A DNA stretch of 32,000 nucleotides from Cupriavidus necator (GTDB taxonomy: Bacteria > Pseudomonadota > Gammaproteobacteria > Burkholderiales > Burkholderiaceae). The notes beneath the pieces are model-generated. The model made no database searches. It had not been told where the DNA came from and was given only the letters and a program-made list of their open reading frames with translations. The position numbers and the translations under genes are program-made. Location of the stretch: positions 1,080,001 to 1,112,000 of the forward strand of contig NZ_CP066019.1 of the NCBI RefSeq assembly GCF_016127575.1, in the 5' to 3' direction. Positions 18,565-31,802 of this stretch are shown piece by piece; the first letter of the stretch is position 1, and the number at the start of each line of letters is the position of its first letter.

Positions 18565-21006
18565 CTACATCCGGAACACCGCCCCCAGCCAGAAGCTGCG
18601 CGGCGCGCCCGGTGCCACGAACAGCGCGCTGGCGGCATCCCCCGGTGCCACGTGCGGGCGCACCAGGCTACCGCCGGGGAACACATCGTTCGCGATCTGT
18701 CCGTAGGTCTCGTAGCGCCGGTCAAAGACATTGGCCAAGCGTGCATAGATCTCAAACCGCTTGTTCACCTTGTACGCCGCGCGCAGGTTCAGGGTGGCGT
18801 AGCCGGGCACATGCCAGTCGGCGGTCTTCGGCGGCGCGCCCGGCTGCGGGTCGCTGCGCAGGCCGTCTTCGTTGCCGCTGGAGACGGTGCCTGACACCGC
18901 CACCAGGTCGGCGCCAAGCGTCAGGCCGGCCAGTGCCTGCCAGTCGAGGCCCAGCTTGAGCGTATGGCGGGGCAGGCCCGCCATGCGCATGCCGGGCCGG
19001 ATGTCGATGGTGCGTTCGCCGGCGGCAAGCTGGCCGGCGGCCTGGTAGGTGGCCTGCAGATAGCTGTACGCAAGCCGCAGCGTGACATCGCCCACGCGCT
19101 GGCGGGCGGTGAGGTCCAGACCCTGGTTGCGGGTGCGGTCGAAGTTGGCGAAGTAGCCGAGCTGGGTGTTCGGCGCGCGCAGGAAGAGGATGTCGTCGTG
19201 ATTGTCGACGCGGTAGAGCGACGCGGTGACTTCGGTGTCCTTGCCGCGGTGCCAGCGCACGCCTGCTTCATAGGAGTGTGAGACCACCTGCTTCAGGTAG
19301 GGATCGGCCTGCAGGCCGGCCGGCAGGCGGCAGGGCCGCGTCGGGTCGGCGCAGCCGAGTTCGAGCACGGTCGGTACGCGGTTGTTCTGCGCGTAGCCCC
19401 CGAACACGGTGACGCCGCCGCCCAGCTTCTGCGAGAGTCCCAGCGCGGGGTTGAGGCGGCGGTAGGTAAAGCTTTCGCGCGGCTGTCCGCTGCCGTCGCT
19501 GTTGCGCAGGGTATTGCTTACCTCGACGTGGTTCCACCTGGCCGAGGCGGTCAGGAAGGTGCTGGGGGTCAGCGACCAGGTGTCGGACAGGTACAGGCCG
19601 AGCATGCGCGAGCTGCCGCCGACGCCGGAGAACAGGGCATTGGGGGCGTCCGGGTCGGCCACGGCGCCGCGGTCGTCGGTGAAGGTGCCAGGCTGCGCGT
19701 ACTGCGAATAGGTCAGGCGGCTGCGGTCCAGGGTCAGGCCGGCGTTGAGCAGGTGGCGGTCGGTCTCCCTGGCCATGCTCAGCGCCATGCCGACGGTCTG
19801 CTGCCACATATGGGTGGTGTTGATCACGGCGGGATGCAGCGCGGCGCCTTCGGCCCGGGTCATGCCGCAGTCGGCGCCGAGCGGGCTGCCGTCGGGCGCA
19901 AAGCCGTCCTCGCAGTCTTCGGCATAGGCCTCGTAGGCGGGGTTGACATCGCCGTTGGTGGTGTCGCGGCGGCTGGTGCGCACGTAGGCCAGCGCGGCGG
20001 CGCTGGTCTTGTCGTCGAACCAGTGGCGGCCGTTGACGACGACCTGGGTCACCTGGTTGCGGGTCTGGTCGGGGTAGGTGTACACGGCGTGGCGGTTGGC
20101 CTGGTAGAGGTCTGGCAGCGTGCCATTGGCGCTGGCGTGGAAGCTGGGCACCAGCCCGTTGCCGGTCAGCGTGCTGCGGCCGTGCAGCACGGAGACGTCC
20201 AAGCTGTCAGTGTCGCCCGCATAGCCAGCCTTGGCGAAGACGTTGCCAAGCCGGCCGCCCGACTGGTCACGCCAGCCATGCTCCTGAAACAGGGTGCCGG
20301 CCGCGAATGCGTGCCAGCCGCTGTCGCTGCGCACGCCGCCGGACAGGTCGGCGCGCTTGCGGGCGCCGCTGCCGTAGGACAGGTCGGCCTCGAAGCCGGG
20401 CGAGTCCAGCCCGGAACGAGTGGTCATGGCCAGCGCCCCGCCCAGGGTATTGAGGCCGTAGGCCGGGTTGGCGCTGGACACCAGCGACACGCTCGCCAGC
20501 GCGGCTTCCGGGATCATGTCCCAGCTGACCACGTCGCCGAAGGGCTCGTTGACGCGGATGCCGTCCAGGTAGACCGACAGTCCCTGCGGCACGCCCGGAA
20601 TGGATGAGGCACGGAAGCCGCGGTAGGTGATGTCGGTCTGGAACGGGCTGCCCTGGATGTCGTTGACGTTGACGCCGGCCAGGTTGCGGGACAGGTACTC
20701 GGCCAGGTTGCCGGCGCGCGACCGATCCAGGTCGTCGCCGCGCACGGTCTGCACGGTGTAGGGCACCAGGTCGCTGTCGACGCCGATGCCTGGCAGCGGC
20801 GCGGCGGCCACCACCAGGACTTCCGGCAGCATGGCGCTGTCCTGGTTTGGGACAGCGGTGTCGTGCTGCGCAACAGCGGGCCGCTGGGTCATCAGGGCGA
20901 CCGCCATGGCAATCGCGGTGGCGGCGCCGCGGCTGGTCCTGCGGCGGCAAGCCACGGTGTCGCGCGGCGCCTGCCCTGGCGGTGCGGGGCGCGGGTTGGC
21001 TGGCAT
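18565..21006 (-). CDS. TonB-dependent outer-membrane receptor
   Basis: It has a signal peptide and a TonB-box-like [11 protein letters not shown]. The plug motifs are present: [16 protein letters not shown]...QTDITYRGF...[17 protein letters not shown] long beta-barrel region follows. GGAGGAG lies about 8 nt upstream of the ATG at 21006, and the 107-aa extension in the track is rejected. The protein ends ...VFRM, whereas most TBDRs end with an aromatic residue. Confidence 0.9.
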
Positions 21007-21328
21007 GGTTCCGTCTCCTCCGGATAAGCGGCGCGATACCTGCATTGGGTAGCGCCTGCCCGGAGCTGAGCAGGTTTCGTACCGTGCATCGGGAGTCCGG
21101 CACTTGCGCGGTGAGCGGCCCGGGAACGCGCTGGCCGAACCCGCCTTGCGCCGATGCCTGTCACAAAACAGGACAGCTGCGGACACAAGCAGCGGGCCGG
21201 TGCTCAACCATGGGACAGTCGTTCGCAGCGCACCGCACAAGGCACGGCCTGGCTGCAGCGTCCGGCAGTGCGTCCGGCGCGGCCAGGCAACGGCTGGCAT
21301 GGAGCGCGGCCTGATGCTGCGCTGCACA

Positions 21329-21382: not shown

Positions 21383-22378
21383 ATGTTCCGCCGCCTTGGT
21401 CGCTGCCTTGCCTGCCTGCTGTTGCCGTGCCTCGGCCTGGTCCATGCGGGCGCAGCGCTGGCCGAGGGCGCGCACGGGTATCCGTCGCGGCCGATCACGC
21501 TGGTGGTGCCATGGCCAGCGGGCGGCGCCACCGATATCTCCATGCGCATCCTGGCGGAGCTGGCCGGGCGCGAGCTGGGGCAGCCGGTCGTGGTGGAGAA
21601 CCGGCCGGGCGCCGGCGGCACGCTGGTGGGAGGCTTGCTTGCCGCGGCGCGGCCGGACGGCTACACCATCGGCCAGCTGCCGCTGACGGTATATCGCTTC
21701 CCGCATCAGCAGAAGACCGCCTGGCAGCCGCTGCGCGACATCCAGCCGGTGCTGATGATCTCGGGCTATACCTTCGGCATCGTGGTGCCCGCAGACAGCC
21801 CGTTACGCTCGCTGCGCGACCTGGTCGCCTGGGGCCGCGCGCATCCGGGCGAGCTGACCGTGGGCTCCACCGGCATCGGCACCACCGCCCATCTGGCGAT
21901 GGAGGACGTGCTCGGGCGCAGCGGCGTGCGCTATATCCACGTGCCGTATCACGGCACCGCTGACCAGATGCTGGCGGTGGCCAACGGTTCGCTGATGGCG
22001 GGGGTCAATTCCACCGGCTTCGCGCCTTTCGTCGAGACCGGCAAGCTGCGCTTGCTGGCCGTGTTCAGCGCGCAGCGCTCACCGCGCTGGCCCGAGGTGC
22101 CGACGGTAAGCGAGCTGGGCTTTGCCGATGCGGTTCATAACTCGCCCTACGGCATCGGCGTGCCGCGCGGCACCGATCCGGCAATCGTCCGCCGCCTGCA
22201 TGACGCATTCCGTGCCGCGATGCAGCAGCCGCGCCACCTTGCGGAACTGGCCAGGTACGACCAGGAGCTGACCTACCTGAATACCGCGCAATACGATGAC
22301 TTCCTGCGCCATGCGTGGGAGACCGAGCGGAGCTTTGCCGAGCGCGTGGGCACCGCGCGGCCCAGGGGGCAGCTGTGA
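21383..22378 (+). CDS. Bug-family (TctC-like) substrate-binding protein, first gene of the quinoprotein-associated operon
   Basis: A signal peptide (MFRRLGRCLACLLLPCLGLVHAGAALA) is followed by the Bug hallmark YPSRPITLVVPWPAGGATD...VVVENRPGAGGTL...RPDGYTIG. The stop TGA at 22376-22378 overlaps the next ATG (TGATG). The 93-aa extension in the track is rejected. Confidence 0.9.
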   Translation: MFRRLGRCLACLLLPCLGLVHAGAALAEGAHGYPSRPITLVVPWPAGGATDISMRILAELAGRELGQPVVVENRPGAGGTLVGGLLAAARPDGYTIGQLPLTVYRFPHQQKTAWQPLRDIQPVLMISGYTFGIVVPADSPLRSLRDLVAWGRAHPGELTVGSTGIGTTAHLAMEDVLGRSGVRYIHVPYHGTADQMLAVANGSLMAGVNSTGFAPFVETGKLRLLAVFSAQRSPRWPEVPTVSELGFADAVHNSPYGIGVPRGTDPAIVRRLHDAFRAAMQQPRHLAELARYDQELTYLNTAQYDDFLRHAWETERSFAERVGTARPRGQL

Positions 22379-23154
22379 TGGCCATGCAAGCGCCGCCGGC
22401 GCTGTGCTGCGATGCCGTGCGCAAGGCCTTTGGCAGCCGCGTGGCCCTGGATGGGGTCTCGCTCAGCGTGCGGCGCGGCGAGTTCGTGGCACTGCTCGGC
22501 CCCAACGGGGCGGGCAAGACGACGCTGTTCCAGATCCTCAGCGGCCTGTTCGTGGCCGATACCGGGCAGGTCACGGTCATGGGCAGCGACATGCGGCGCG
22601 ATCCGGTGCGCGCGCTGGCGCGGCTGGGCATCGTGTTCCAGCAGCCGGCCATCGACCTGGACCTGCCGGTGCTGGCCAACCTGCGCTTTCACGCGGACCT
22701 GCACGGGCTGCCGCGCGGCGTGGCGGCGCTGCGCATCGCCCGGCTGCTCGATGACTTCGGGCTGGCGGCGCGTGCGCGCGCACCGGTGCGCGAGCTTTCG
22801 GGCGGCAACCGGCGCAAGGTGGAACTGGCGCGCGCGCTGCTGCATGAACCGGCCATGCTGCTGCTGGACGAGCCGACGGTGGGGCTGGACCCGGCCTCGC
22901 GCGCGCAACTGGTGGCCGATGCGCGGCGCCTGACGGCGCGGGCGCAGGCCGGCGTGCTGTGGGCCACCCACCTGGTGCAGGAGGTGGAGCACGCCGACCG
23001 CGTGATCGTGCTGGACCGCGGCATGGTGCGTTTCGACGGCACCCCGGCCGCACTGCGCGGCGCCGCTGCGTGCGACACCCTGGAGGGCGCTTTCCTGGCC
23101 ATGACGCCGCGGGCCCCTGTCACTGACCCGGCCGCGAGGCGCGTACCCGCATGA
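22378..23154 (+). CDS. ABC transporter ATP-binding protein (PQQ-dependent alcohol dehydrogenase system type; PedB/LutE-like)
   Basis: Walker A GPNGAGKTT, signature LSGGNRRKVELARAL, Walker B LLLDEPTVGLD and H-loop WATHLV are present. It is a single-NBD ABC-2/DrrA-like ATPase. The start is coupled to the upstream stop. Confidence 0.9.
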   Translation: MAMQAPPALCCDAVRKAFGSRVALDGVSLSVRRGEFVALLGPNGAGKTTLFQILSGLFVADTGQVTVMGSDMRRDPVRALARLGIVFQQPAIDLDLPVLANLRFHADLHGLPRGVAALRIARLLDDFGLAARARAPVRELSGGNRRKVELARALLHEPAMLLLDEPTVGLDPASRAQLVADARRLTARAQAGVLWATHLVQEVEHADRVIVLDRGMVRFDGTPAALRGAAACDTLEGAFLAMTPRAPVTDPAARRVPA

Positions 23155-24179
23155 ACAAGATGCCATCTCCCCGCTGGTTTGCCGGCGCCTTGCTGCTGGT
23201 CACGACGCTGCTGGTTGCCGCCGGCCTGGCCGAAGGCGCGCAGGGCGGGGCCGCGCGACCCGCCGGCCAGGCTGGCAACCAGGTCTTTGTCTCGAGCGAG
23301 AAGGACGATGCCCTCGCCGTCTTCGATGCCCGCAGCCGGCAGCTGGTCGCGGTATGGCGGCAGTGCAAGCGCCCGCGCCACCTGCAACTGTCGCCCGACC
23401 GGACGCGCCTGTACGTGGCCTGCAGCGACGACAACCGGGTGGATGTGGTCGACGTGGCCAGCCGCAAGACCGTGGCATCGCTGCCGGTGGGGGATGATCC
23501 GGAGTTGTTCGATCTCAGCCAGGACGGCCGCACGCTCTATGTCTCGAATGAAGAGGACGGGCTGCTGTCGGCCTACGACACGGCGTCGGGCAAGCGCGTG
23601 TTCGCGGTCAGGGTGGGCGAGGAGCCGGAGGGCGTCAAGGTCAGCGCCGACGGCAGGCATGTGTACGTGACCTCGGAGGTGGCCAACCTGGTCCATGTCA
23701 TCGACGTGGCCTCGCGCAAGGTGATCCGCAATATCCAGGTCGGCAACCGGCCGCGGCGGCTGCTGCTGGTGCGCGACGGCAAGGAGCTGTGGGTATCCAA
23801 CGAGCTCTCGGCCAGCGTCAGCGTGATCCGTACCGATACCTTCGAGGTGGCCCAGACCATCGCCTTCGCGCCGCGGGGCTTTCGCGCCGAGGACGTGACC
23901 CCGGTGGGCATGGCGGCCAGCGGCGACGGCACGCGCGCCTATATCGGGCTCGGCCGCGCCAACCATGTCGCGGTGGTCGAGGTGGCGTCGCGCCGGGTGC
24001 AGGACTATGTGCTGGTCGGCCGCCGCGCATGGGGGCTGGCGCTGAGCCGCGACAACGCGCGGCTGTATGTCGCCAACGGCCTGTCCGACGATGTCAGCGT
24101 GGTGGCCACCGCCAGCCGCAAGGCGGTGGCCACGCTCAAGGCGGGCCGGGTGCCGCATTCGGTGGCGATCGATGACTGA
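23151..24179 (+). CDS. Periplasmic YVTN-repeat beta-propeller protein (PQQ-dependent catabolism-associated beta-propeller; PedA2/LutB-like)
   Basis: After a signal peptide, repeated units follow the pattern P..L..S.DG..LYV.N...D.VSV.D (for example LSPDRTRLYVACSDDNRVDVVD, LSQDGRTLYVSNEEDGLLSAYD, VSADGRHVYVTSEVANLVHVID, LSRDNARLYVANGLSDDVSVV). It overlaps the ATPase stop with ATGA. Confidence 0.85.
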   Translation: MNKMPSPRWFAGALLLVTTLLVAAGLAEGAQGGAARPAGQAGNQVFVSSEKDDALAVFDARSRQLVAVWRQCKRPRHLQLSPDRTRLYVACSDDNRVDVVDVASRKTVASLPVGDDPELFDLSQDGRTLYVSNEEDGLLSAYDTASGKRVFAVRVGEEPEGVKVSADGRHVYVTSEVANLVHVIDVASRKVIRNIQVGNRPRRLLLVRDGKELWVSNELSASVSVIRTDTFEVAQTIAFAPRGFRAEDVTPVGMAASGDGTRAYIGLGRANHVAVVEVASRRVQDYVLVGRRAWGLALSRDNARLYVANGLSDDVSVVATASRKAVATLKAGRVPHSVAIDD

Positions 24180-25377
24180 GCGCTCGCGTGCGTGGTGGCA
24201 GTGGTGGCGTGCCGGGCTGGGCGCCGTGGCGCTGGGGTGGCTGCCTGCCGCGGTGCACGCTGCCGAGGTGCGCGTGGCGGTCGTGTCGCAGGCCGACGAC
24301 GCGCGCTATGCGCCCCGGCGCCTGGCGCAGCGCTATCCCGGCCAGCCGCAGGGCCGTGCGCTCGACGGCGCCCAGGTGGCGGCCGCCGAAGCGCGCGTGG
24401 CGCTCGGGGCCGCGGGCCAGTCGCTCAGGCTGGAAGCACAGGAAGCCCGCACTGAAGCCGAGGTGGCCCCGCTGGTCGCGGCGCTGGCGCGGCAGGGCAC
24501 GCGCTATATCCTGCTGGACCTGCCGCCGGCATCGGTCAGGGCGGCCACGGGCGCGGTCAAGCCGGGCGAGGCCTTGTTGTTCAACGTGTCGGCCGACGAC
24601 GACGCGTTGCGCGGCGCCGGCTGCGCGCCGGTGCTGCTGCACACGCTGCCCAGCCTGCGCATGCGCGCGGATGCGCTGATGCAGTACCTGGCACTGCGCA
24701 AATGGCGCCGCGCCCTGCTGCTGAGCGGCCCGTCCGCGGCCGATGCGGCGCAGCGCGACGCGCTGGTGGCGTCGGCGCGGCGCTTTGGCATTGCCTGGTC
24801 GGCGCAGCGCGCCTTCCGGCTGTCCAACGACCCGCGTGAGCGCGACCAGGCCAACCTCGGCCTGCTGACCGGCGGCGTGGACTATGACGTGGTGGTGGTG
24901 GCCGATGCCGACGGCGAGTTCGCCCGCGGCGTGCCCTACGCCACGCTGCTGCCGCGCCCGGTGGTGGGCGCCGGCGGGCTGGGCGCGCAGGCGTGGCACT
25001 GGGCCTGGGAGCGCAATGGCGGGCCGCAGCTCAACCGGCGCTTCATGCGCGCGGCGGGCCGTCCGATGACCGGCTACGACTGGGCTGCCTGGGTGGCGGT
25101 CAAGGCCATTGCCGAGAGCGTGGCGCGCCTGCCCGGGGCCGGGTTTGCCGGACAGGCGCAGGCGCTTGCCGCCGGGCAGGTGGTGGTGGACGGCTTCAAG
25201 GGGCCGCCGCTGTCGTTCCGCCGCTGGGACCGCCAGCTGCGCCAGCCGGTGTTGCTGGCCCACCCCGACGGCGTGGCCGGCATGGCCCCGGTGGAAGGCG
25301 TGTTGCATCCGAAGAACAACCTCGACACCCTGGGCGCCGATGAAGCCGACACGGCGTGCCGGGCCCCATCCGCGTAG
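24172..25377 (+). CDS. Type-1 (LivK-like) periplasmic substrate-binding protein of the PQQ-ADH-associated ABC system (PedA1/LutA-like)
   Basis: The start at MTERSRAWWQWW gives a signal/anchor segment ending AVHA-AEVRVAVV. The fold-level pattern of branched-chain-type binding proteins is present (RYILLDLP..., ...LQYLALRKWRRALLLSGP...). It overlaps the previous gene by 8 nt. The 35-aa extension in the track is rejected. Confidence 0.75.
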   Translation: MTERSRAWWQWWRAGLGAVALGWLPAAVHAAEVRVAVVSQADDARYAPRRLAQRYPGQPQGRALDGAQVAAAEARVALGAAGQSLRLEAQEARTEAEVAPLVAALARQGTRYILLDLPPASVRAATGAVKPGEALLFNVSADDDALRGAGCAPVLLHTLPSLRMRADALMQYLALRKWRRALLLSGPSAADAAQRDALVASARRFGIAWSAQRAFRLSNDPRERDQANLGLLTGGVDYDVVVVADADGEFARGVPYATLLPRPVVGAGGLGAQAWHWAWERNGGPQLNRRFMRAAGRPMTGYDWAAWVAVKAIAESVARLPGAGFAGQAQALAAGQVVVDGFKGPPLSFRRWDRQLRQPVLLAHPDGVAGMAPVEGVLHPKNNLDTLGADEADTACRAPSA

Positions 25378-25384
25378 CGCACCC

Positions 25385-26197
25385 ATGGCCTCCATCCTGA
25401 TCCATCGCTGGCGCGCGCTGCGCGCGGTTTGCGGGCGCGAGCTGCGCAAGTACCTGCGCCAGCCCGGGCGCCTGCTGTCGTCGCTGGTGCGCCCGCTGCT
25501 GTGGCTGCTGGTGTTTGCCGCGGGCTTCCAGAACGCGCTGGGCGTCGCCATTGCGCCGCCCTACGACACCTACATCGAATACAAGGTCTACGTGGCGCCC
25601 GGACTGCTGGGCATGATCGCGCTGTTCAACGGCATGCAGTCGTCGCTGGCCATGGTGTACGACCGCGAGATGGGCGTGATGCGGCTGCTGCTGACCGCGC
25701 CGCTGCCGCGGGGCTGGCTGCTGGCTTGCAAGCTGGCGGCGGGTACGGTGCTGTCGCTGCTGCAGATGGCCGCGTTCCTGCTGGTGGCGATGGCCTTCGG
25801 CATCCGCTTCGAGTCCCTGCACCTGCTGGCGGCGACGGGCGCCATGGCGCTGGCCGCGCTGATGCTGGGTGCGCTGGGCCTGCTGCTGTCGGTTCATGTG
25901 CGCCAGCTCGAGAACTTTGCCGGCACCATGAACTTCGTGATCTTCCCGATGTTCTTCATCAGCTCGGCGCTGTATCCACTGTGGAAGCTGCAGGAGTCGG
26001 GCGCGGAGCTGGTGTACCAGCTGGCCCGCTTCAATCCGTTCACCCACGCGGTCGAGGCGATCCGCTTTGCGCTGTACGGGCAGGTGGCGCCGCTGAGCCT
26101 GGCGGTGGTGGCGGGCAGCGCGGTGGTGTTCTTCGCGCTGGCGCTGCAGGGCTACGACCCGCAGCGCGGCATGGCGCGCCGGGGGCAGCAGGCATGA
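25385..26197 (+). CDS. ABC-2 type transporter permease (PedC/LutF-like)
   Basis: 270 aa with about 6 TM segments. The ABC-2 N-terminus is typical: RELRKYLRQPGRLLSSLVRPLLWLLVFAAGF. It starts 7 nt after the SBP stop. The 92-aa extension in the track is rejected. Confidence 0.85.
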   Translation: MASILIHRWRALRAVCGRELRKYLRQPGRLLSSLVRPLLWLLVFAAGFQNALGVAIAPPYDTYIEYKVYVAPGLLGMIALFNGMQSSLAMVYDREMGVMRLLLTAPLPRGWLLACKLAAGTVLSLLQMAAFLLVAMAFGIRFESLHLLAATGAMALAALMLGALGLLLSVHVRQLENFAGTMNFVIFPMFFISSALYPLWKLQESGAELVYQLARFNPFTHAVEAIRFALYGQVAPLSLAVVAGSAVVFFALALQGYDPQRGMARRGQQA

Positions 26198-26994
26198 GGC
26201 GGCGGACGTGGGGCATGCTCCTGCTGATGGCGGCCGCACTGGGCCTGGCCAGTGCGGCGGTAGCGGCTGCCGGGGCAGCGGGCGCCGTCATCGCGCACAG
26301 CGATCCGCTGCAGTCGCCGCAATGGGCCTGGATCCACAAGGAGCTGCTGCAGTCTGGCCCGGTGGTGTTCGACAGCCGCGTCAGGGTGACCGGGCCGGCG
26401 TTTGCGGAAGACCCCATGCGCGTGCCGATCGCCTTCGATGCCTCGGCGCTGGGCGAAGTGGATCGCATCGTGGTGGCGGTCGACCGCAACCCGATCCGCG
26501 AGGTGCTGGCGTTCGAACCGCTGCGGGTGCGCCCGTCGCTGTCGTTCCGCTTCAAGCTGGAACAGGCTTCGCCGGTGCGGGTGGCGGCGCGCACGCGCGA
26601 TGGCACCTGGCATGTCGGCAGCGTGCTGGTCAATGCCGGCGGCGGGGGCTGTACGGTGCCCGGCGCCACCCGCCGCGACGGCAGCTGGAGCCGCACGCTC
26701 AATCGCGTGGACGCGCGCGTGTTCCCGGGCTTCGGCGGGGCCGCGGCACGCGTGCGGCTGCGCGTGATGCATCCGATGGATACCGGACTGGCAGCGGGCA
26801 TCCCGGCGTTCCACATCGAGACCCTGGTTCTTGCCGACGCGGCCCGGCAGCCGCTGCTGCGCCTGACGCTGCATGAGCCGGTTGCCGAGAATCCGATCTT
26901 CTCCTTCGACCTGCGCGATGCCGTGCCGCCGGGCATGACGGTGGCCGGCCACGACAACAACGGCAACCGCATCGCGGCGCGGGTGTCACCATGA
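26194..26994 (+). CDS. SoxY-SoxZ fusion-like periplasmic carrier protein (quinoprotein dehydrogenase-associated SoxYZ-like carrier)
   Basis: An RR-containing signal peptide (MRRRTWGMLLLMAAALGLASA) is present. The N-terminal half fits the SoxY pattern (VTGPAFAEDPMRVPI...VAVDRNP...SFRFKLEQASPVRVAART.DGTWH..SVLVNAGGGGC). The C-terminal half fits SoxZ (RVRLRVMHPMDTG...IPAFHIETLVL...EPVAENPIFSFDL). It overlaps the permease stop with ATGA. The 255-aa extension in the track is rejected. Confidence 0.75.
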   Translation: MRRRTWGMLLLMAAALGLASAAVAAAGAAGAVIAHSDPLQSPQWAWIHKELLQSGPVVFDSRVRVTGPAFAEDPMRVPIAFDASALGEVDRIVVAVDRNPIREVLAFEPLRVRPSLSFRFKLEQASPVRVAARTRDGTWHVGSVLVNAGGGGCTVPGATRRDGSWSRTLNRVDARVFPGFGGAAARVRLRVMHPMDTGLAAGIPAFHIETLVLADAARQPLLRLTLHEPVAENPIFSFDLRDAVPPGMTVAGHDNNGNRIAARVSP

Positions 26995-27962
26995 AGCGGC
27001 GATTGCTACTGTGGTTGCTGCTATGCCTGGCGGGCCAGCCCGTGCCGCCGGCATTCGCCCAGCAGGCTGCGCTGCAGCCTCCTGACTATCGCCTGGCCCC
27101 GCGCGAGATCGCCGCGGGCGTGTGGCTGCTGGAAGGCGCCAATGCCGACTTCGCGCCCGGCAACGGCTGCAACATCATCAATACGGCGTTCATCGACACC
27201 GGCGACGGCATAGTGGTTATCAACACCGGCCCGTCGCGGCTGTATGGCGAGCAGCAGCGCAAGGCGATTGCATCGGTCACGGCCGCCCCGGTGCGGCTGG
27301 TGCTGAACCTGAACCTGCATCCCGACTATTTCTTCGGCAACCAGGCCTATGCCGATGTGGGCGGCAGCGCCCTGGCCGGCACCATCGACGGGGCGCGGCG
27401 CGAGGGCGCCGCTTATGCCGACAACCTCTACCGCCTGTGCGGCGACTGGATGCGCGGCACCGAGCCCGTGCCGGCTGCGCACGCGCTGGCGCCGGGCCGG
27501 CTCACGATCGGGCGCCATACGCTGGAGATGGTGCGCCTGGACGGCCATACCGGCGACGACCTGGTGGTGCTGGACCACAGCGCGGGCGTGGTCTTTGCCG
27601 GCGGGCTGGTGTTCCGGCAACGCATTCCGACCACGCCGCACGCGGATATCGGCCGCTGGCTGGCCAGCCTGGGCCGGCTGCAGGCGCTGCTGGCCGACAG
27701 CGGGGCGCGCGTGCTGGTCCCCAGCCACGGGCCAGTGCCTGCGGCCGGCGGCGGCGCTGAGGCCATCGCGCAGACGCGCGGCTACCTGCAATGGCTGGAC
27801 ACGCGCCTGCGCGAGGCCGCGGCGCAGGGGCGGGACCTGGCCGAGGTCATGGCGATGCCGGTGCCGCAGCCCTACGCGCACTGGGCCGCGATGCCCGCGG
27901 AGTACCTGCGCAACGTCGGCCATCTCTACCCTGCGCGTGAGGAAGCCGCGCTTGGCCACTGA
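26991..27962 (+). CDS. Periplasmic metallo-beta-lactamase-fold protein (quinoprotein relay system metallohydrolase-like)
   Basis: It has a signal peptide ending PAFA-QQ and an MBL-fold layout: GCNIINTAFIDTGDGIVVINTGPS, then LNLNLHPDYFFGN at the HxHxDH position, GHTGDDLVVLD, VFAGGLVF and LVPSHGP. It overlaps the carrier gene stop with ATGA. Confidence 0.8.
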   Translation: MKRRLLLWLLLCLAGQPVPPAFAQQAALQPPDYRLAPREIAAGVWLLEGANADFAPGNGCNIINTAFIDTGDGIVVINTGPSRLYGEQQRKAIASVTAAPVRLVLNLNLHPDYFFGNQAYADVGGSALAGTIDGARREGAAYADNLYRLCGDWMRGTEPVPAAHALAPGRLTIGRHTLEMVRLDGHTGDDLVVLDHSAGVVFAGGLVFRQRIPTTPHADIGRWLASLGRLQALLADSGARVLVPSHGPVPAAGGGAEAIAQTRGYLQWLDTRLREAAAQGRDLAEVMAMPVPQPYAHWAAMPAEYLRNVGHLYPAREEAALGH

Positions 27963-28081
27963 CGCTGGCCAGCCGAGGCGGGCTGTTCAGTTCTGGAGCA
28001 ACTGCAACGCAGTGTTGCGCGCTGGCACGGCCGTCATCACGCAACCGGGCCGCAACCGGCGTGCTGGTGCGGGGATGCGAC

Positions 28082-28096
28082 TGGCATGGGAATTGC
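28082..28096 (+). promoter_or_regulatory. Candidate sigma54 (-24/-12) promoter for the PQQ alcohol dehydrogenase gene
   Basis: TGGCATG-ggaa-TTGCC matches the consensus TGGCACG-N4-TTGCW except at one -24 position, and the GG/GC spacing is exact. It lies about 68 nt upstream of the ATG at 28164. Confidence 0.5.
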
Positions 28097-28163
28097 CAAA
28101 GGCGTGTCTGGTGGGTGGCGCAGTGGCGCACCTGGGAAACCCAAAACAAGAGAGGAGATGGCA

Positions 28164-29906
28164 ATGAGGACGTTACGAGTAGTGATGGCGGTTGCGGCTG
28201 CCGCGGCCAGTCTGGCCGCGCAGGCGGCTGTGACCGATGCCATGATCGAGAACGACGCAAAGAGCCCCGGCGATGTGTTGTCGTGGGGCATGGGCCCGCA
28301 AGGCCAGCGCTATTCCACGCTGTCGCGCATCAATACGAAGAACGTCGGGCAGCTGGTGCCGGCGTGGTCGTTCTCGTTTGGCGGCGAGAAGCAGCGCGGG
28401 CAGGAATCGCAGCCGCTGATCCATGACGGCAAGATGTTCGTGACGGCCTCGTATTCGCGCATCTATGCGCTGGACCTGAAGACCGGGCGCAAGCTCTGGA
28501 AGTATGAGCACCGGCTGCCCGAAGGCATCATGCCGTGCTGCGACGTGGTGAACCGCGGTGCGGCACTCTACGACAACCTGGTGATCTTCGGCACGCTCGA
28601 TGCGCAGCTGGTGGCGCTGGACCAGAAGACCGGCAAGGTGGTGTGGAAGGAGAAGCTGGAGGACTACGCCGCCGGCTATTCGTACACGGCGGCGCCCATG
28701 ATCGTCAAGGGCATGGTGCTGACCGGCATCTCGGGCGGCGAGTTCGGCGTGGTGGGCCGGGTCGACGCACGCGATGCCAAGACCGGGCAGCTGGTGTGGT
28801 CGCGGCCGGTGGTCGAAGGCCATATGGGCTACAAGTACGACAAGGACGGCAACAAGACCGAGAACGGCGTGACCGGCACCGCCAACGCAAGCTGGCCGGG
28901 CGAGACCTGGAAGACCGGCGGCGCCGCCACCTGGCTGGGCGGCACCTACGATCCGGCCACCGGGCTGGTGTACTTCGGCACCGGCAATCCGGGGCCGTGG
29001 AACAGCCATATCCGCAAGGGCGACAACCTCTACTCGGCCTCGACGGTGGCGCTGGATCCCGCCACCGGCAAGATCGCCTGGCACTACCAGAACACCCCGA
29101 ACGACGGCTGGGATTTCGATGGCGTCAATGAGTTCGTGACCTTCGACCTGGACGGCAAGCGCATGGGCGGCAAGGCCGACCGCAATGGCTTCTTCTACGT
29201 CAACGACGCGGCCAGCGGCAAGCTGGTCAACGCCTTCCCCTTCGTCAGGAAGATCACCTGGGCCACCGGCATCGACCTGAAGAGCGGCCGCCCCAACTAC
29301 ATCGCCGAAGGCCGCCCCGGCGACCCCGCCGCCGGCAGCGACGAGAAGAAGGGCAAGTCCGTGTTTGCCGCGCCGGGCTTCCTTGGCGGCAAGAACCAGC
29401 AGCCGATGGCCTACAGCCCGCAGACCGGCCTGTTCTACGTGCCCGCCAACGAGTGGGGCATGGATATCTGGAACGAGCCCATCAGCTACAAGAAGGGCGC
29501 TGCCTTCCTGGGCGCGGGTTTCACCATCCGTCCGCTGAACGAGGACTATATCGGCACGCTGCGGGCCATCAACCCCAAGAGCGGCAAGATCATGTGGGAG
29601 GTCAAGAACAGCGCGCCGCTGTGGGGCGGGGTGATGACCACCGCCGGCGGGCTGGTGTTCTGGGGCACGCCGGAAGGCTACCTGAAGGCGGCCGACGCCA
29701 GGACCGGCAAGGAGCTGTGGCAGTTCCAGACCGGCAGCGGCGTGGTGGCGCCCCCGGTCACCTGGGAAGAGAACGGCGAGCAGTACGTGGCGGTGGTGTC
29801 CGGCTGGGGCGGCGCGGTGCCGCTGTGGGGCGGCGAGGTGGCCAAGCGCGTGAACTTCCTGGAGCAGGGCGGCTCGGTGTGGGTGTTCAAGCTGCACAAG
29901 AGCTGA
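28164..29906 (+). CDS. PQQ-dependent (type I quinoprotein) alcohol dehydrogenase, ExaA/PedE/PedH family
   Basis: It is nearly colinear with Pseudomonas quinoprotein ethanol dehydrogenase. Shared elements are [43 protein letters not shown], the vicinal disulfide [58 protein letters not shown] and GGSVWVFKL. Signal peptide: [28 protein letters not shown] ends 6 nt before the ATG at 28164, so the ATG at 28158 and the track start at 28086 are less likely. Confidence 0.95.
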
Positions 29907-29929
29907 GCTGGCGGGAGATGACACTGCCA

Positions 29930-29966
29930 GGCGCCCGCATCGCATCATGGGTGCGATGCGGGCGCC
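29930..29966 (+). other. Perfect 15-bp GC-rich hairpin between the dehydrogenase and cytochrome c genes
   Basis: GGCGCCCGCATCGCA (29930-29944) pairs perfectly with TGCGATGCGGGCGCC (29952-29966) across a 7-nt loop (TCATGGG). No U-tract follows. Confidence 0.6.
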
Positions 29967-29984
29967 GGGCGCGGGTGCAACAGG

Positions 29985-30326
29985 ATGAAACGGGACTCAG
30001 GTATGAAGAAGGAATGGATGGCGCTGGCGGTGGCTTCGGCGCTGCTGCCGGGCGCGGCGCTGGCCGGCACGGCCGCCGACATGCAGGCCCTGGCCGACAA
30101 GAGCGGCTGCTTTTCCTGCCATGGCATGCAGTCAAAGCTGGTGGGCCCGGGGTTTGCCGAGGTGGCTGCCAAGTACAAGGGCGACAGCCAGGCGGCGGAG
30201 CGGCTGGCAAAGAAGATCCGCGAAGGCGGCAAGGGCGCGTGGGGGCGGATTCCGATGCCGCCGCATGGCAGCCTTGCTGAGGACGATGCGAAGAAACTGG
30301 CGGAGTGGGTGTTGAGTGCCAGCTGA
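29985..30326 (+). CDS. Class I c-type cytochrome, c551/c552 (c8) family; likely electron acceptor of the PQQ dehydrogenase
   Basis: The heme motif CFSCH and the distal Met context GAWGRIPMPP are present. The sequence is colinear with Pseudomonas cytochrome c551 (KxGCxxCH....K.VGP.....AAKY.G........LA..I..G..G.WG.IPMPP........A..LA.WVLS). The start may be the ATG at 30003 (MKKEWMAL...) rather than 29985. Confidence 0.85.
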   Translation: MKRDSGMKKEWMALAVASALLPGAALAGTAADMQALADKSGCFSCHGMQSKLVGPGFAEVAAKYKGDSQAAERLAKKIREGGKGAWGRIPMPPHGSLAEDDAKKLAEWVLSAS

Positions 30327-30405: not shown

Positions 30406-30406
30406 C

Positions 30407-31558
30407 TTAGCGCTGGCCGCTGCTCAGCCGCAGCGAGTTGCCATCGCTGCGAAATACCATCGCTTGCTCGCGTGCCTGCGCCACGGCCAGCCGGCCCTGC
30501 AGCACGATCTCGCTGACCTTGTCGTGCGCGCCGGAGCGCTCGCACACCGGGTCCGTGGCGGTGGCGTCGCCGGTGACCAGGAACGCCTGGCAGCGGCAGC
30601 CGCCGTAGTCCTGCTCGCGCTGGTCGCAGGAACGGCAGGGTTCCTGCATCCACTGCGTGCCGCGGAAACGGCGGAAGGCATCGCTTTCGGTCCAGATCTC
30701 GCGCAGCCCCTGCGTGGCGACATTGGGCAGCGCCAGGCCCGGCAGCATGCGCGCCGCGTGGCAGGGCAGCGCGGTGCCGTCCGGCGCCACGCCAAGGAAG
30801 GTGGTGCCCCAGCCGTTCATGCACTTCTTGGGCCGCGCCTCGAAGTAATCAGGCACGACGAACAGGATCTGGCATTGCCTGCCGATGCGCGCGCGGTACT
30901 GCCGGACCACGGCCTCGGCCTCGCGCAGCTGCTCATGGGTGGGCAGCAGCGCCAGCCGGTTCTCCCAGGCCCAGCCGTAGTACTGCGTGTTGGCCAGTTC
31001 CAGGTATTCGGCGCCCATCTGCAGGGCCATCTCGATGATGGTGCCGACATGCGGCAGGTTATGCCGGTGCAGCACGCAGTTCATCACCATCGGATAGCCG
31101 TGCGCCTTGATCATGCGCGCCACGCGCTGCTTCAGGTCGAAGGTGCGGGTGCTGGACAGGAAGTCGTTGAGCTCGCGGGTGGAGTCCTGGAACGACAGCT
31201 GGATATGGTCCAGGCCGGCGTCGCGCAGGGCGGCAAGGCGGGCGTCGGTCAGGCCCACGCCCGAGGTGATGAGGTTGGTGTAGAAGCCCAGGCCATGCGC
31301 ATGCCTGACCAGTACTTCAAGGTCCTTGCGCAGCAGTGGTTCGCCGCCGGACAGCCCGAGCTGCACCGCGCCCAGCGCCCGCGCCTGGCTGAACACGTCG
31401 CACCATTGCACGGTGCTCAGCTCGGCCGTATGCCGGGCATAGTCCACCGGGTTGGAGCAGAAGGCGCAATGCAGCGGGCAGCGGTAGGTCAGCTCGGCCA
31501 GCAGCCACAGCGGCGGGCCGGGCGCGGCCTCAGACCAGCCAGCCGCGTTCGATCGCAT
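30407..31558 (-). CDS. pqqE: PQQ biosynthesis radical SAM/SPASM protein PqqE
   Basis: PPLWLLAELTYRCPLHCAFCSNP contains the CxxxCxxC radical SAM motif. GGEPLLRKDL and a Cys-rich SPASM C-terminus (CRSCDQREQDYGGCRCQAF) are present. It is colinear with Klebsiella PqqE. The start was chosen at MRSNAAGW (31558), which overlaps the pqqD 3' end by 29 nt. The ATG at 31573 is also possible. Confidence 0.93.
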   Translation of the reverse strand: MRSNAAGWSEAAPGPPLWLLAELTYRCPLHCAFCSNPVDYARHTAELSTVQWCDVFSQARALGAVQLGLSGGEPLLRKDLEVLVRHAHGLGFYTNLITSGVGLTDARLAALRDAGLDHIQLSFQDSTRELNDFLSSTRTFDLKQRVARMIKAHGYPMVMNCVLHRHNLPHVGTIIEMALQMGAEYLELANTQYYGWAWENRLALLPTHEQLREAEAVVRQYRARIGRQCQILFVVPDYFEARPKKCMNGWGTTFLGVAPDGTALPCHAARMLPGLALPNVATQGLREIWTESDAFRRFRGTQWMQEPCRSCDQREQDYGGCRCQAFLVTGDATATDPVCERSGAHDKVSEIVLQGRLAVAQAREQAMVFRSDGNSLRLSSGQR

Positions 31559-31802
31559 GTTTGACAAAGGCATGTACCTCCGGGGCGATTCCCTGCACGC
31601 CAAACGCGGCCTGCAGGTCGTCGATCAGCATGTCCAGCGTGTGGCTGCCGTCGCAGCGCTGCAGGATCGCGGCGGCGCTGTCGTTGAGGGTGACCATGCC
31701 TTCCGGGTACAGCAGCACCCAGCTTTGCTGGGAGGCTTCCCATTGCAGGCGAAAGGTCCGGTGCAGGGTCGGTCTGGCGAGGTCTTGCGTGCTGGCTGTC
31801 AT
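31530..31802 (-). CDS. pqqD: PQQ biosynthesis peptide chaperone PqqD
   Basis: The 90-aa product [52 protein letters not shown]... matches the PqqD core (FRLQWE....H.LLYPEGM..LN..A..IL). The 64-aa extension in the track is rejected because it would overlap pqqC. Confidence 0.9.

What the first reader, a model, noticed from the sequence alone, without database searches (positions are those of the whole stretch)
26194..27962. Single-cysteine SoxYZ-like carrier paired with an MBL-fold protein whose metal motif is degenerate (NLHPDY instead of HxHxDH): candidate periplasmic thiol relay
The 266-aa SoxY-SoxZ fusion contains exactly one cysteine in the whole protein. That Cys sits in NAGGGGC (codons at 26638-26652) at the end of the SoxY-like half. 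This is the position of the GGCGG swinging-arm cysteine that carries covalent sulfur intermediates in SoxY.

The ATGA-coupled next gene encodes an exported MBL-fold protein. At the canonical HxHxDH position it reads N-L-H-P-D-Y (27312-27329). The later GHTGDD and PSHG histidines are retained, but the usual Asp in the xxGDLxF strand reads AGGLVF. The first and last His of the motif are therefore replaced. An Asn at the first position also occurs in mono-zinc subclass B2 enzymes.

My hypothesis is inference only. The carrier Cys captures the reactive aldehyde product of the neighbouring dehydrogenase as a thiohemiacetal. That is oxidised to a thioester, and the MBL protein acts as a glyoxalase-II-like thioesterase. 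This would be a protein-bound periplasmic analogue of glutathione-dependent aldehyde detoxification. Alternative roles are persulfide chemistry or metal chemistry. No aldehyde dehydrogenase gene is present in this window.
Basis: partly seen in the sequence, partly recalled or inferred. Interest (0 to 1): 0.8.

Follow-up and report, generated by a model that had tools for sequence, protein, structure and literature searches.

The report
Known PQQ-linked carrier pair, remodelled hydrolase
These two genes are a Cupriavidus copy of an already catalogued but never tested accessory pair of lanthanide-type alcohol dehydrogenases, and in this bacterial order the "zinc hydrolase" partner has lost three of its seven metal-binding residues and gained two cysteines, so it probably does not work as its database name implies.

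Summary
The 266-aa SoxY-SoxZ fusion has one cysteine (Cys153, GGGGC-T). It is ATGA-coupled to a 323-aa MBL-fold protein that reads N-L-H-P-D-Y where HxHxDH is expected and G where the usual Asp sits.

The pair is not new. [quoted passage not shown] These correspond to PP_2677/PP_2678 of the P. putida ped cluster, which are discussed in recent papers but uncharacterised. Here the pair lies between a PedA1A2BC-like ABC transporter and a PedH-type lanthanide ADH.

What I add:
- The degenerate motif is a fixed, monophyletic Burkholderiales variant nested inside a canonical HHHPDH/D/PGHG family.
- It changes H116N, H121Y and D221G, and also the conserved second-shell Asp (D78N).
- It comes with a gained invariant Cys pair (C60, C150).
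- The rhodanese-like CXXCW partner, common next to canonical systems, is absent.
- A second remodelled MBL paralog with an invariant CxxC often accompanies it.

The carrier Cys is present in 148/148 loci.

The partner genes point to sulfur or thiol chemistry on the carrier Cys. Function remains untested.

The parts
22315..23154 (+). ABC transporter ATP-binding subunit, PedA1-like. The likely start is near 22375.
   Evidence: TIGR03864 PQQ_ABC_ATP, 338 bits against a cut-off of 302.
23151..24179 (+). Periplasmic YVTN beta-propeller protein, PedA2-like. Its start overlaps the previous stop.
   Evidence: TIGR03866, 322 bits against a cut-off of 287.
24193..25377 (+). ABC substrate-binding protein of the PQQ-dependent alcohol dehydrogenase system, PedB-like.
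   Evidence: TIGR03863, 465 bits against a cut-off of 414.
25427..26197 (+). ABC-2 permease, PedC-like. Its stop overlaps the carrier start (ATGA).
   Evidence: TIGR03861, 354 bits against a cut-off of 241. Sequence read.
26194..26994 (+). SoxY-SoxZ fusion carrier, 266 aa, exported, with a single Cys.
   Evidence: TIGR04557, 214 bits against a cut-off of 140. Pfam SoxY 90 bits and SoxZ 36 bits. AF2 pLDDT 86.6; best fold match is SoxY.
26638..26655 (+). G-G-G-G-C153-T arm; the Cys codon is at 26650-26652.
   Evidence: Invariant GGGCT in 121/121 close homologues. A GGC Cys is present in 148/148 loci, including carriers of 24-30% identity. It aligns with the SoxY GGC Cys.
26991..27962 (+). SoxH-like MBL-fold protein (MBL1), 323 aa, exported, belonging to the N-Y-G clade of TIGR04558.
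   Evidence: TIGR04558, 404 bits against a cut-off of 300. AF2 pLDDT 90.9. Fold neighbours are 8d2z, 6uxu and B1/B2 MBLs.
27312..27329 (+). N108-L-H110-P-D112-Y113 in place of HxHxDH (H116N and H121Y in standard MBL numbering).
27603..27605 (+). G205 at the position of the bridging Asp (Cys221 in B1/B2 enzymes).
   Evidence: G in 124/124 clade members and D in 138/138 canonical members.
27168..27170 (+). Cys60 in the conserved N-G-x-N-I loop. It is clade-specific.
   Evidence: C in 124/124 clade members; G in 135/138 canonical members.
27438..27440 (+). Cys150 in the conserved Y-R-x-x-G-D-W-M helix end. It is clade-specific and the likely partner of Cys60.
   Evidence: C in 124/124 clade members against V/I/L/A in canonical members. 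There are exactly two Cys in the mature region in 123/124 clade members and none in 131/138 canonical members.
27546..27548 (+). H186, the retained H196-equivalent ligand in G-H-T-x-D-D.
   Evidence: Invariant in both clades.
27726..27728 (+). H246, the retained H263-equivalent ligand. The motif reads P-S-H-G here and P-G-H-G in canonical members.
28086..29906 (+). PedH-type lanthanide-dependent PQQ alcohol dehydrogenase. The likely true start is near 28158, after GAGAGGAG.
   Evidence: TIGR03075, 777 bits. Best solved relatives are PedH 6zcv/6zcw at 833 bits, against ExaA 1flg at 676 bits. It carries W-D-F-D-G and the vicinal PCC.
29985..30326 (+). Cytochrome c (c550/PedF-like electron acceptor), followed by a terminator-like hairpin at 30375-30393.
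   Evidence: Weak cytochrome c551/c550 matches. Conserved position in the loci. Terminator-like site.
30407..31603 (-). PqqE, followed by PqqD at 31530-31994 (-). This is the start of a convergent pqq operon that runs off the window.
   Evidence: Synteny and tblastn across the loci. PqqB was identified further on in L002.
18565..21327 (-). TonB-dependent receptor, upstream on the opposite strand (a TctC-family gene lies between it and the operon). Listed as context.
   Evidence: Pfam Plug plus TonB_dep_Rec. Conserved next to the cluster in 11 Cupriavidus loci; homologues of 30-37% identity sit in Ralstonia and other loci.

Best explanation
What it is. [quoted passage not shown] They are translationally coupled to a PedA1A2BC-like ABC transporter and sit directly upstream of a PedH-type lanthanide PQQ alcohol dehydrogenase.

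Proposed working model. The steps below are inferred unless marked as shown.
- The exported SoxY-SoxZ fusion presents one invariant cysteine on a flexible glycine-rich loop (shown).
- As in SoxY, that thiol carries a covalently bound group. I think this is most likely a sulfur-linked one: a persulfide, S-sulfonate or mixed disulfide.
- The SoxH-like MBL-fold partner docks on the arm and removes or passes on the group. This regenerates the carrier and keeps reactive sulfur or thiol species away from the PQQ enzyme.

The lineage-specific point.
- In this lineage the partner has been rebuilt (shown). Three of seven metal ligands are replaced: H116N, H121Y and D221G. A second-shell Asp is replaced as well. 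Two invariant cysteines are gained.
- The rhodanese-like CXXCW partner is absent from the locus (shown).
- The unloading step here is therefore unlikely to be classical di-zinc hydrolysis. It more likely uses either a single metal held by H110/D112/H186/H246 or thiol-disulfide exchange.
For: Family membership and synteny.
- HMM scores are above the curated cut-offs.
- The same gene order occurs in 78/80 genome loci.
- The Pseudomonas ped locus reads pedF-pedG-SoxYZ-MBL-pedH-pedI.
- The neighbouring ADH always carries W-D-[FY]-D-G wherever it was detected, and it is closest to PedH.

Carrier role.
- SoxY fold and Cys register.
- A GGC Cys in 148/148 loci.
- A low-confidence, flexible Cys loop.

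Partner acts on the carrier.
- Strict adjacency and ATGA coupling.
- SoxH has been proposed to release sulfate from SoxY in Campylobacterota (PMC10045233, PMC11237559). This is a proposal, not a demonstration.

Sulfur or thiol flavour.
- The TIGR03865 rhodanese-like CXXCW protein occurs in 30/83 canonical loci, often within 1 kb.
- A carrier-MBL-CXXCW trio occurs without an ADH in Thiolinea.
- An FCSD-like flavocytochrome is present in 4 loci and a second SoxYZ fusion in one of them (L086).
- YeeE-like genes lie nearby in Hyphomicrobium (PMC11582611).

Remodelling.
- The N-Y-G clade is monophyletic inside canonical TIGR04558.
- Eight of the ten clade-defining positions sit in the metal-ligand motifs or next to them.
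- The Cys pair was gained.
- The rhodanese-like gene is in 0/79 clade loci.
- The MBL-X paralog has an invariant CxxC in 31/31 sequences.
Against: - No experiment exists for any member of the family.
- RB-TnSeq in P. putida gave minimal phenotypes, though it was done without lanthanides (review PMC12997753).
- The nature of the adduct is pure inference.
- The mSystems 2024 authors argue that these SoxYZ fusions serve carbon metabolism rather than sulfur metabolism (PMC11237559).
- No sox, rhodanese or FCSD gene lies in this window.
- I could not obtain model coordinates. Whether C60 and C150 lie near each other or near the active site is untested.
- The rhodanese contrast rests on one evolutionary event (one clade), so its p-value overstates the evidence.
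Confidence: 0.45

Rival explanations
1. The carrier Cys traps the aldehyde made by the PQQ-ADH as a thiohemiacetal. This is oxidised to a thioester, and the MBL protein hydrolyses it like glyoxalase II.
For: - The pair is tightly linked to PQQ alcohol dehydrogenases.
- The curated name 'relay system' implies a carried intermediate.
- No aldehyde dehydrogenase is in this window.
- A weak sequence match to the glyoxalase-II-type YcbL 2xf4, E 0.004.
Against: - MBL1 lacks 3 of the 7 ligands that glyoxalase II uses.
- Its fold neighbours are B1/B2 lactamases, Chd and 8d2z.
- ExaC/PedI aldehyde dehydrogenases sit beside the orthologous systems in Ralstonia and Pseudomonas.
- The co-travelling genes are of thiol or sulfur type.
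- The Cys loop is tethered at both ends in the fusion. Reaching the buried PQQ site would therefore be hard (inference).
- PedE/PedH-type enzymes are said to oxidise aldehydes directly (abstract of PMC12997753).
Confidence: 0.12
2. Maturation or upkeep factor of the lanthanide-type ADH. The pair would form or repair the vicinal Cys-Cys disulfide, or protect or repair PQQ, rather than process a metabolite.
For: - The pair is always next to DxD-type ADHs that carry the PCC motif.
- It is absent from P. aeruginosa, which has only the Ca-type ExaA (review PMC12997753).
- Cysteines were gained in MBL1, MBL-X carries a CxxC, and the canonical systems have a CXXCW partner. All of these fit thiol-redox chemistry.
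- A thioredoxin-like gene lies in the M. extorquens operon (review PMC12997753).
Against: - The Thiolinea trio has no ADH on its contig.
- Ca-type enzymes have the same disulfide and manage without the pair (review PMC12997753).
- No direct evidence exists.
Confidence: 0.15
3. In this lineage MBL1 is a catalytically dead pseudoenzyme. It would be kept as a docking or adaptor protein for the carrier, with any chemistry done by the MBL-X paralog or other proteins.
For: - Loss of three ligands and of the motif-1 Asp.
- MBL-X keeps a full H116/H118/H196 site and is common in Cupriavidus and Ralstonia.
- Natural loss or damage of MBL1 in L009 and L025.
Against: - The replaced positions are themselves invariant: N, Y, G and C in 98-100% of 124 sequences. 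The four remaining ligands are invariant too. This looks like a selected new site rather than decay.
- By contrast, a related clade shows variable, decayed motifs.
- MBL-X is missing within 10 kb in many clade-A loci.
Confidence: 0.18
4. Lanthanide handling. The harder N/Y/D ligand set of MBL1 and its place in the PedA1A2BC-type uptake operon would mean it binds or passes on Ln3+ for the ADH.
For: - Translational coupling to the ABC transporter genes, whose P. putida counterpart is needed for REE-dependent growth (PMC6839425).
- A TonB-dependent receptor lies nearby.
- His was replaced by O-donor residues.
Against: - Canonical all-His orthologues sit next to the same kind of ADH.
- The site has few carboxylates compared with known Ln sites (established knowledge).
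- The invariant carrier Cys has no obvious role with a hard metal ion.
Confidence: 0.06

Closest known systems
[quoted passage not shown]
   Same: - HMM scores above the cut-offs.
- A SoxY-SoxZ fusion with a GGGCT Cys.
- Carrier-then-MBL order.
- Position next to a PedH-type ADH, a cytochrome c, the ped ABC genes and pqq genes.
   Different: - The MBL has N/Y/G instead of H/H/D at three ligand positions, N for the motif-1 Asp, and two extra Cys.
- No CXXCW rhodanese-like gene and no pedG in the locus.
- The pair is fused to the ABC transporter operon rather than following pedF-pedG.
SoxYZ thiosulfate-oxidation carrier complex (Paracoccus 2oxg, Thermus 4uwq)
   Same: - The fold of the SoxY half.
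- The carrier Cys is in register after a Gly run.
- It is periplasmic.
   Different: - One polypeptide, with the Cys on an internal loop (GGGCT...R) rather than a free C-terminal GGCGG arm.
- Below the TIGR04488/TIGR04490 cut-offs (51 against 125 bits; 27 against 76 bits).
- No soxXA, soxB or soxCD in the window.
SoxH, the periplasmic MBL-fold protein of sox clusters (function unproven; proposed to release sulfate from SoxY)
   Same: - An exported MBL-fold protein encoded beside a SoxY-type carrier.
- The family models are named SoxH_rel (PMC10045233, PMC11237559).
   Different: - It is associated with a PQQ-ADH, not with a sox operon.
- The ligand set is incomplete in this clade.
- I did not compare it directly with a bona fide SoxH sequence.
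Subclass B2 mono-zinc metallo-beta-lactamases (CphA, Sfh-I)
   Same: - Asn at position 116, with H118, D120, H196 and H263 kept.
- Good structural superposition, TM on target 0.83.
   Different: - Gly instead of Cys221, so the B2 catalytic Zn site (D120, C221, H263) is incomplete.
- About 90 extra residues, including a long helix and a C-terminal helical bundle.
- Lactamase HMM scores are far below the cut-offs.
Glyoxalase II (hydroxyacylglutathione hydrolase)
   Different: - Only 4 of 7 metal ligands are present.
- The sequence match is marginal (2xf4, E 0.004).
- It is not among the top 50 structural neighbours.

Membership tests
[quoted passage not shown] | Whole-protein HMM score at or above the curated cut-off (140 bits) | tested here: met
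   214.4 bits, covering profile positions 1-225 of 226.
[quoted passage not shown] | SoxY and SoxZ domains fused in one chain, with the carrier Cys after a Gly run | tested here: met
   Pfam SoxY at residues 49-153 and SoxZ at 182-262. GGGC153T is present. A GGC Cys occurs in 148/148 related loci.
[quoted passage not shown] | Encoded next to a PQQ-dependent dehydrogenase of the methanol/ethanol family | tested here: met
   The ADH lies about 1.1 kb downstream. The same arrangement holds in most of the 80 genome loci.
TIGR04558 quinoprotein relay system zinc metallohydrolase 1 | Whole-protein HMM score at or above the curated cut-off (300 bits) | tested here: met
   403.8 bits.
TIGR04558 quinoprotein relay system zinc metallohydrolase 1 | Complete MBL metal-ligand set (H116, H118, D120, H121, H196, D221, H263), as in the canonical members and as the name 'zinc metallohydrolase' implies | tested here: not met
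   N108, H110, D112, Y113, H186, G205, H246, so 4 of 7. Canonical members read HHHPDH in 117/118 and PGHG in 118/118, and D at position 221 in 138/138.
TIGR04558 quinoprotein relay system zinc metallohydrolase 1 | Binds zinc and hydrolyses a substrate | not testable with these tools
   No member has been assayed according to the papers found (PMC12997753). This needs ICP-MS and enzymology.
True SoxY/SoxZ of the Sox thiosulfate-oxidising system (TIGR04488, TIGR04490) | HMM scores above the cut-offs and a C-terminal GGCGG arm | tested here: not met
   51.4 bits against 125 and 26.7 bits against 76. The Cys is internal and followed by T-V-P-G-A-T-R and the SoxZ half.
True SoxY/SoxZ of the Sox thiosulfate-oxidising system (TIGR04488, TIGR04490) | Neighbouring soxXA, soxB (and soxCD) | tested here: not met
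   None appeared among the ORFs scanned in the window.
Glyoxalase II | Binuclear site formed by HxHxDH plus His, a bridging Asp and His | tested here: not met
   The first His, the last His and the bridging Asp are replaced.
Glyoxalase II | Closest sequence or structure relatives are hydroxyacylglutathione hydrolases | tested here: not met
   The best PDB sequence hit is 8d2z; 2xf4 reaches only E 0.0044. The Foldseek top 50 holds 8d2z, 6uxu and B1/B2 lactamases.
Subclass B2 metallo-beta-lactamase | N116 together with the D120-C221-H263 zinc site | tested here: not met
   N116, D120 and H263 are present, but position 221 is Gly. The class B HMMs score 22-38 bits against cut-offs of 100-520.
Persulfide dioxygenase (ETHE1 type) | Mononuclear iron held by two His and the Asp equivalent to position 221 (mapping from my own knowledge of ETHE1) | tested here: not met
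   Position 221 is Gly in 124/124 clade members. Canonical TIGR04558 members keep it, so this reading stays open for them but not for this protein.

The most novel reading that the evidence does not exclude
In Burkholderiales the relay-system MBL protein has been converted from a metal-dependent hydrolase into a cysteine-based partner of the SoxYZ-like carrier. The gained C60/C150 pair lies in two family-conserved segments that probably line the active-site groove. It would exchange a disulfide or persulfide with carrier Cys153, taking over the job of the lost rhodanese-like CXXCW protein. The CxxC-bearing MBL-X paralog would be a second such convert. This would be an MBL scaffold repurposed for thiol-redox chemistry in the service of a lanthanide enzyme.
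Probability: 0.15. Interest if true: 0.65.

Novelty: new variant of a known kind. Interest (0 to 1): 0.42.

Why it matters
The carrier/MBL pair is one of the few conserved genes around lanthanide-dependent alcohol dehydrogenases (PedH, ExaF, XoxF contexts) that still has no known function. Recent reviews list it as an open item.

This window does not solve that question, but the comparison narrows it in three ways.
- The one feature conserved everywhere is the carrier cysteine.
- The 'zinc hydrolase' chemistry implied by the database name cannot be general, because a whole bacterial order has dismantled the binuclear site while keeping the protein under strong selection.
- The gains and losses of cysteine-bearing partners (the CXXCW protein, the Cys pair and the CxxC paralog) suggest thiol or sulfur transfer as the common currency.

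This gives concrete, cheap experiments: mass of the carrier adduct, metal content, and ligand-restoring mutants. It also warns against transferring the annotation 'zinc metallohydrolase' to the Cupriavidus/Ralstonia proteins.

If the pair turns out to be ordinary housekeeping, the result is still a clean example of active-site remodelling inside one curated 'equivalog' family.

Tried and rejected
- Rhodanese/CXXCW, pedG-like, FCSD-like and ExaC-like genes. I searched the window by tblastn and found none.
- Promoter and terminator scan of 21000-30500. It was uninformative apart from a terminator-like hairpin after the cytochrome c gene. It gives no evidence for or against a separate ADH promoter.
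- Distances between C60, C150 and the ligand cluster. I wanted to measure them, but the structure tool returns no coordinates, so the disulfide and active-site proximity stay inferred.
- Carrier-MBL complex prediction.
- TIGR04559 ('metallohydrolase 2') as the degenerate partner. Rejected. A true TIGR04559 member (L151, 393 bits) is fully canonical and belongs to a separate MBL-then-carrier architecture.
- The second MBL of Cupriavidus and Ralstonia as TIGR04559. Rejected. It scores below both cut-offs at 152-160 bits.
- Simple decay or pseudogene for the NLHPDY motif. Rejected, because the substituted residues are invariant across 124 sequences down to 56% identity.
- Literature. A search for SoxH plus metallo-beta-lactamase plus thiosulfate returned nothing. 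The 2024 KT2440 lanthanide transcriptome paper does not mention PP_2677, PP_2678 or PP_2666 in its main text.
- The genome-collection scan returned only Burkholderiales, because it keeps the best 80 hits. I therefore used the metagenome scan and exact-protein look-ups to reach canonical systems.

Full report
**1. What is in the sequence**

The finding's coordinates hold.
- ORF 26194-26994 (+) encodes a 266-aa protein with a signal-peptide-like N-terminus and exactly one cysteine, Cys153 (codon 26650-26652), in N-A-G-G-G-G-C-T.
- Its TGA overlaps the ATG of ORF 26991-27962 (+), which encodes a 323-aa protein with its own signal-peptide-like start.
- Pfam finds SoxY (residues 49-153) and SoxZ (182-262) in the first protein and Lactamase_B in the second.
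- The MBL protein reads N108-L-H110-P-D112-Y113 (27312-27329), G-H186-T-G-D-D, F-A-G-G205-L-V-F and P-S-H246-G.

In standard MBL numbering it therefore keeps H118, D120, H196 and H263. It has Asn, Tyr and Gly at positions 116, 121 and 221. That mapping is mine, made by alignment to the motif order.

The carrier Cys aligns with the GGC cysteine at the C-terminus of solved SoxY 4uwq_B.

AlphaFold models are confident.
- MBL: mean pLDDT 90.9.
- Carrier: mean pLDDT 86.6.
- The carrier's best structural matches are SoxY chains of the Paracoccus SoxYZ complex.
- The ten residues around the Cys have the lowest confidence of the folded body, as expected for a mobile arm.

**2. It is a catalogued pair**

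NCBIfam gives the following:

| Protein | Family | Score | Cut-off |
|---|---|---|---|
| MBL protein | TIGR04558, 'quinoprotein relay system zinc metallohydrolase 1' | 404 bits | 300 |

The neighbours are the curated companions:
- PQQ-system ABC ATPase, beta-propeller protein, substrate-binding protein and PedC permease upstream. The first junction (ATPase/propeller) and the last (permease/carrier) overlap; the other two are separated by short gaps.
- A PQQ alcohol dehydrogenase and a cytochrome c downstream.
- pqqE and pqqD convergent at the window end.

The dehydrogenase is of the lanthanide type.
- Its best solved relatives are PedH 6zcv/6zcw (833 bits), against the calcium enzyme ExaA 1flg (676 bits).
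- It carries W-D-F-D-G, with an Asp two residues after the catalytic Asp. I take this as the lanthanide signature from my own knowledge of XoxF and PedH.

The closest database proteins are from Cupriavidus.

A 2026 review of the ped cluster lists PP_2677 (SoxYZ-like) and PP_2678 (SoxH-like) between pedG and pedH.
- It calls them poorly characterised.
- It reports minimal RB-TnSeq phenotypes obtained without rare earths.
- It offers disulfide formation, cofactor stabilisation or protection of PQQ from sulfur nucleophiles as guesses (PMC12997753).

Two other papers note the same synteny in Hyphomicrobium and in lucinid symbionts (PMC11582611; PMC11237559). The 'candidate periplasmic thiol relay' is therefore the existing in-silico hypothesis, not a new one.

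**3. The degenerate motif is a lineage-specific, selected variant**

Among 120 close homologues the odd residues are themselves conserved:

| Position | Conservation |
|---|---|
| N108 | 118/121 |
| Y113 | 119/121 |
| G205 | 121/121 |
| H110, D112, H186, H246 | 121/121 each |

A search of 50%-identity cluster representatives showed that the wider family splits.
- Many proteins 37-51% identical to the query read H-x-H-P-D-H, G-D-L-V-F and P-G-H-G.
- These canonical proteins also score as TIGR04558, at 315-414 bits.
- They come from Pseudomonas, Stutzerimonas, Alcanivorax, Algiphilus, Thiolinea and Methyloversatilis.
- 117 of 118 read HHHPDH and all read PGHG.

A neighbour-joining tree places all N-H-D-Y-H-G-H sequences in one clade, nested among H-H-D-H-H-D-H sequences. 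The tree is a quick distance tree and was not bootstrapped.

I compared 124 clade members with 138 canonical ones. Only ten positions are fixed differently: G60C, V63I, D78N, T107L, H108N, H109L, H113Y, D205G, G245S and M283L.
- D78N replaces the motif-1 Asp of VIDTG.
- Eight of the ten lie in the ligand motifs or next to them.
- The mature clade proteins have exactly two cysteines (C60, C150) in 123 of 124 cases.
- The canonical proteins have none in 131 of 138.
- Both cysteines sit in segments conserved across the whole family: N-G-x-N-I and Y-R-x-x-G-D-W-M.

By homology with B1 enzymes, the N-G-x-N-I segment is the base of the loop that flanks the active site. That placement is inference, because I had no coordinates.

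All 78 MBL genes next to carriers in 80 Burkholderiales genome loci are of this type.

**4. Changes elsewhere in the system**

*The rhodanese-like partner.* In Pseudomonas the locus also holds a 179-aa rhodanese-like protein. NCBIfam names it 'PQQ-dependent catabolism-associated CXXCW motif protein', TIGR03865.
- It occurs in 30 of 83 loci with a canonical MBL, often within 1 kb.
- It occurs in 0 of 79 loci with the N-Y-G form.
- With at least 5 kb on both sides the counts are 13/30 against 0/61, Fisher p = 6e-8.
- Because the N-Y-G loci are one lineage, this amounts to one evolutionary event, not 61.

*The second paralog.* In Ralstonia a second SoxH-like gene follows MBL1 directly. In Cupriavidus it lies about 8 kb further on, past the pqq operon, and so outside this window.
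- This 'MBL-X' is 27-31% identical to MBL1 and falls below both family cut-offs.
- It reads H-A-H-P-E-[HN] and A-H-S, has Gly at 221 and lacks the last His.
- It has an invariant C-x-x-C in 31/31 sequences.

*Other neighbours met now and then.*
- An FCSD-like flavocytochrome c in 4 loci.
- A second SoxYZ fusion.
- A Thiolinea contig with carrier, canonical MBL and CXXCW protein in a row, and no PQQ dehydrogenase on its 13.7 kb.

*A separate architecture.* MBL then carrier, often with the CXXCW gene upstream, corresponds to TIGR04559. It is canonical in its ligands.

The carrier's GGC cysteine is present in all 148 loci where a carrier was found. This includes carriers only 24-30% identical.

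**5. How it most likely works**

Shown:
- One invariant thiol sits on a flexible loop of a SoxY-like fold.
- An obligately adjacent MBL-fold partner accompanies it.
- The pair is linked to lanthanide-type PQQ dehydrogenases.
- The partner's active site has been rebuilt in this lineage.

Inferred:
- The thiol carries a covalent group and the partner removes or transfers it. This follows the analogy with SoxY and its processing enzymes, and with the proposal that SoxH releases sulfate from SoxY (PMC10045233; PMC11237559).
- I favour a sulfur-linked adduct because every optional companion gene is a thiol or sulfur protein. This is a lean, not a demonstration.

For the Cupriavidus protein specifically, classical di-zinc hydrolysis is unlikely. 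Three possibilities remain, all untested:
- a single metal held by the four surviving ligands;
- thiol-disulfide or persulfide exchange through the new cysteines;
- a purely binding role.

**6.

A thiohemiacetal-thioester relay ending in a glyoxalase-II-like thioesterase is not excluded, but nothing found here points to it.
- The ligand set required by glyoxalase II is incomplete.
- The structural neighbours are an uncharacterised Burkholderia MBL (8d2z, TM 0.74), chlorothalonil dehalogenase and B1/B2 lactamases.
- Orthologous loci carry ordinary ExaC/PedI aldehyde dehydrogenases.
- The ped-cluster review states that these PQQ dehydrogenases oxidise aldehydes as well as alcohols (PMC12997753).

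The comparison with subclass B2 is apt for Asn116 but fails at position 221.

**7. Verdict**

- Observation: confirmed.
- Interpretation: right in outline, and the outline is already the curated view. The specific chemistry is unsupported.
- Novelty: the pair is known. The monophyletic ligand-loss and cysteine-gain variant, and its coincidence with loss of the CXXCW partner, did not appear in the papers I found. I class it as a new variant of a known kind.
- Interest: moderate. It sharpens an open question about the accessory genes of lanthanide enzymes and gives clear experiments, but it does not answer the question.

Noticed in passing
L013:11717-12685 (Ralstonia); L002 about 18600-19517 (C. 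necator); the equivalent would lie near 34.9 kb, beyond the window end: A second SoxH-like paralog ('MBL-X') is 27-31% identical to MBL1 and falls below both TIGR04558 and TIGR04559 cut-offs. It reads HAHPE[HN] and AHS, has Gly at 221 and lacks the last His. It has an invariant CxxC in 31/31 sequences. It follows MBL1 directly in Ralstonia and lies past the pqq operon in Cupriavidus.
   Followed up: partly
window 18565-21327 (-): A TonB-dependent receptor lies upstream of the ped-like operon on the opposite strand, separated from it by a TctC-family gene. It is conserved there in 11 Cupriavidus loci (74-91% identity). Homologues of 30-37% identity lie beside the system in Ralstonia, Polynucleobacter and others, and one follows the ADH in Alicycliphilus (L087). 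It is a candidate uptake receptor for lanthanides or a lanthanide chelator.
   Followed up: partly
window 21386-22378 (+): A TctC/Bug-family periplasmic binding protein gene sits immediately upstream of the ABC ATPase gene. It is conserved at that position in Cupriavidus and lies next to the ABC genes, on the opposite strand, in Hydrogenophaga-like loci. Two further TctC-family genes are at 8563-9555 and 12052-13212.
   Followed up: no
L084:7173-9522 (Thiolinea MAG contig, 13.7 kb): A SoxYZ-like carrier, a canonical MBL and a CXXCW rhodanese-like protein form a compact three-gene unit. No PQQ dehydrogenase is anywhere on the contig.
   Followed up: partly
L086:12167-14172; also L087:17455-19073, L040, L072: An FCSD-like flavoprotein (with a small cytochrome c in L087 and L040) lies near the system. 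In L086 it is followed by a second, divergent SoxYZ fusion just after the PedH-type ADH.
   Followed up: partly
L087:8542-10990 (Alicycliphilus denitrificans): The N-Y-G type MBL gene is preceded by a phage-type integrase and other island genes instead of the carrier gene. The carrier appears to have been displaced by an insertion.
   Followed up: no
L009:10753-11612 (C. basilensis OR16); L025:10768-12214 (C. gilardii CCUG 38401): In L009, MBL1 is split into two frames, either a frameshift or a draft-assembly error. In L025 only the first 73 residues of MBL1 remain. They are followed by cytochrome c and pedG-like genes, with no adjacent ADH.
   Followed up: no
window 28086-28160: The mechanical ORF for the ADH starts at 28086. 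A GAGAGGAG ribosome-binding sequence precedes ATGGCAATGAGG near 28158, and the signal peptide begins there. The real start is probably about 24 codons downstream, which leaves an intergenic gap of about 195 bp after MBL1.
   Followed up: no
window 3086-7400 (+) and 16794-18755 (-): Genes that look unrelated to the finding: a cytochrome o ubiquinol oxidase operon (cyoA and cyoB identified; the smaller downstream ORFs were not scanned) and a PAS-domain methyl-accepting chemotaxis protein.
   Followed up: no
representatives P0341, P0354, P0361, P0363, P0380, P0389, P0390: A further clade of SoxH-related proteins has strongly and variably degraded motifs, for example T-H-A-V-R-E-F and A-S-G-P-G-D. 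This looks like true decay towards a pseudoenzyme, in contrast to the fixed N-Y-G clade.
   Followed up: no
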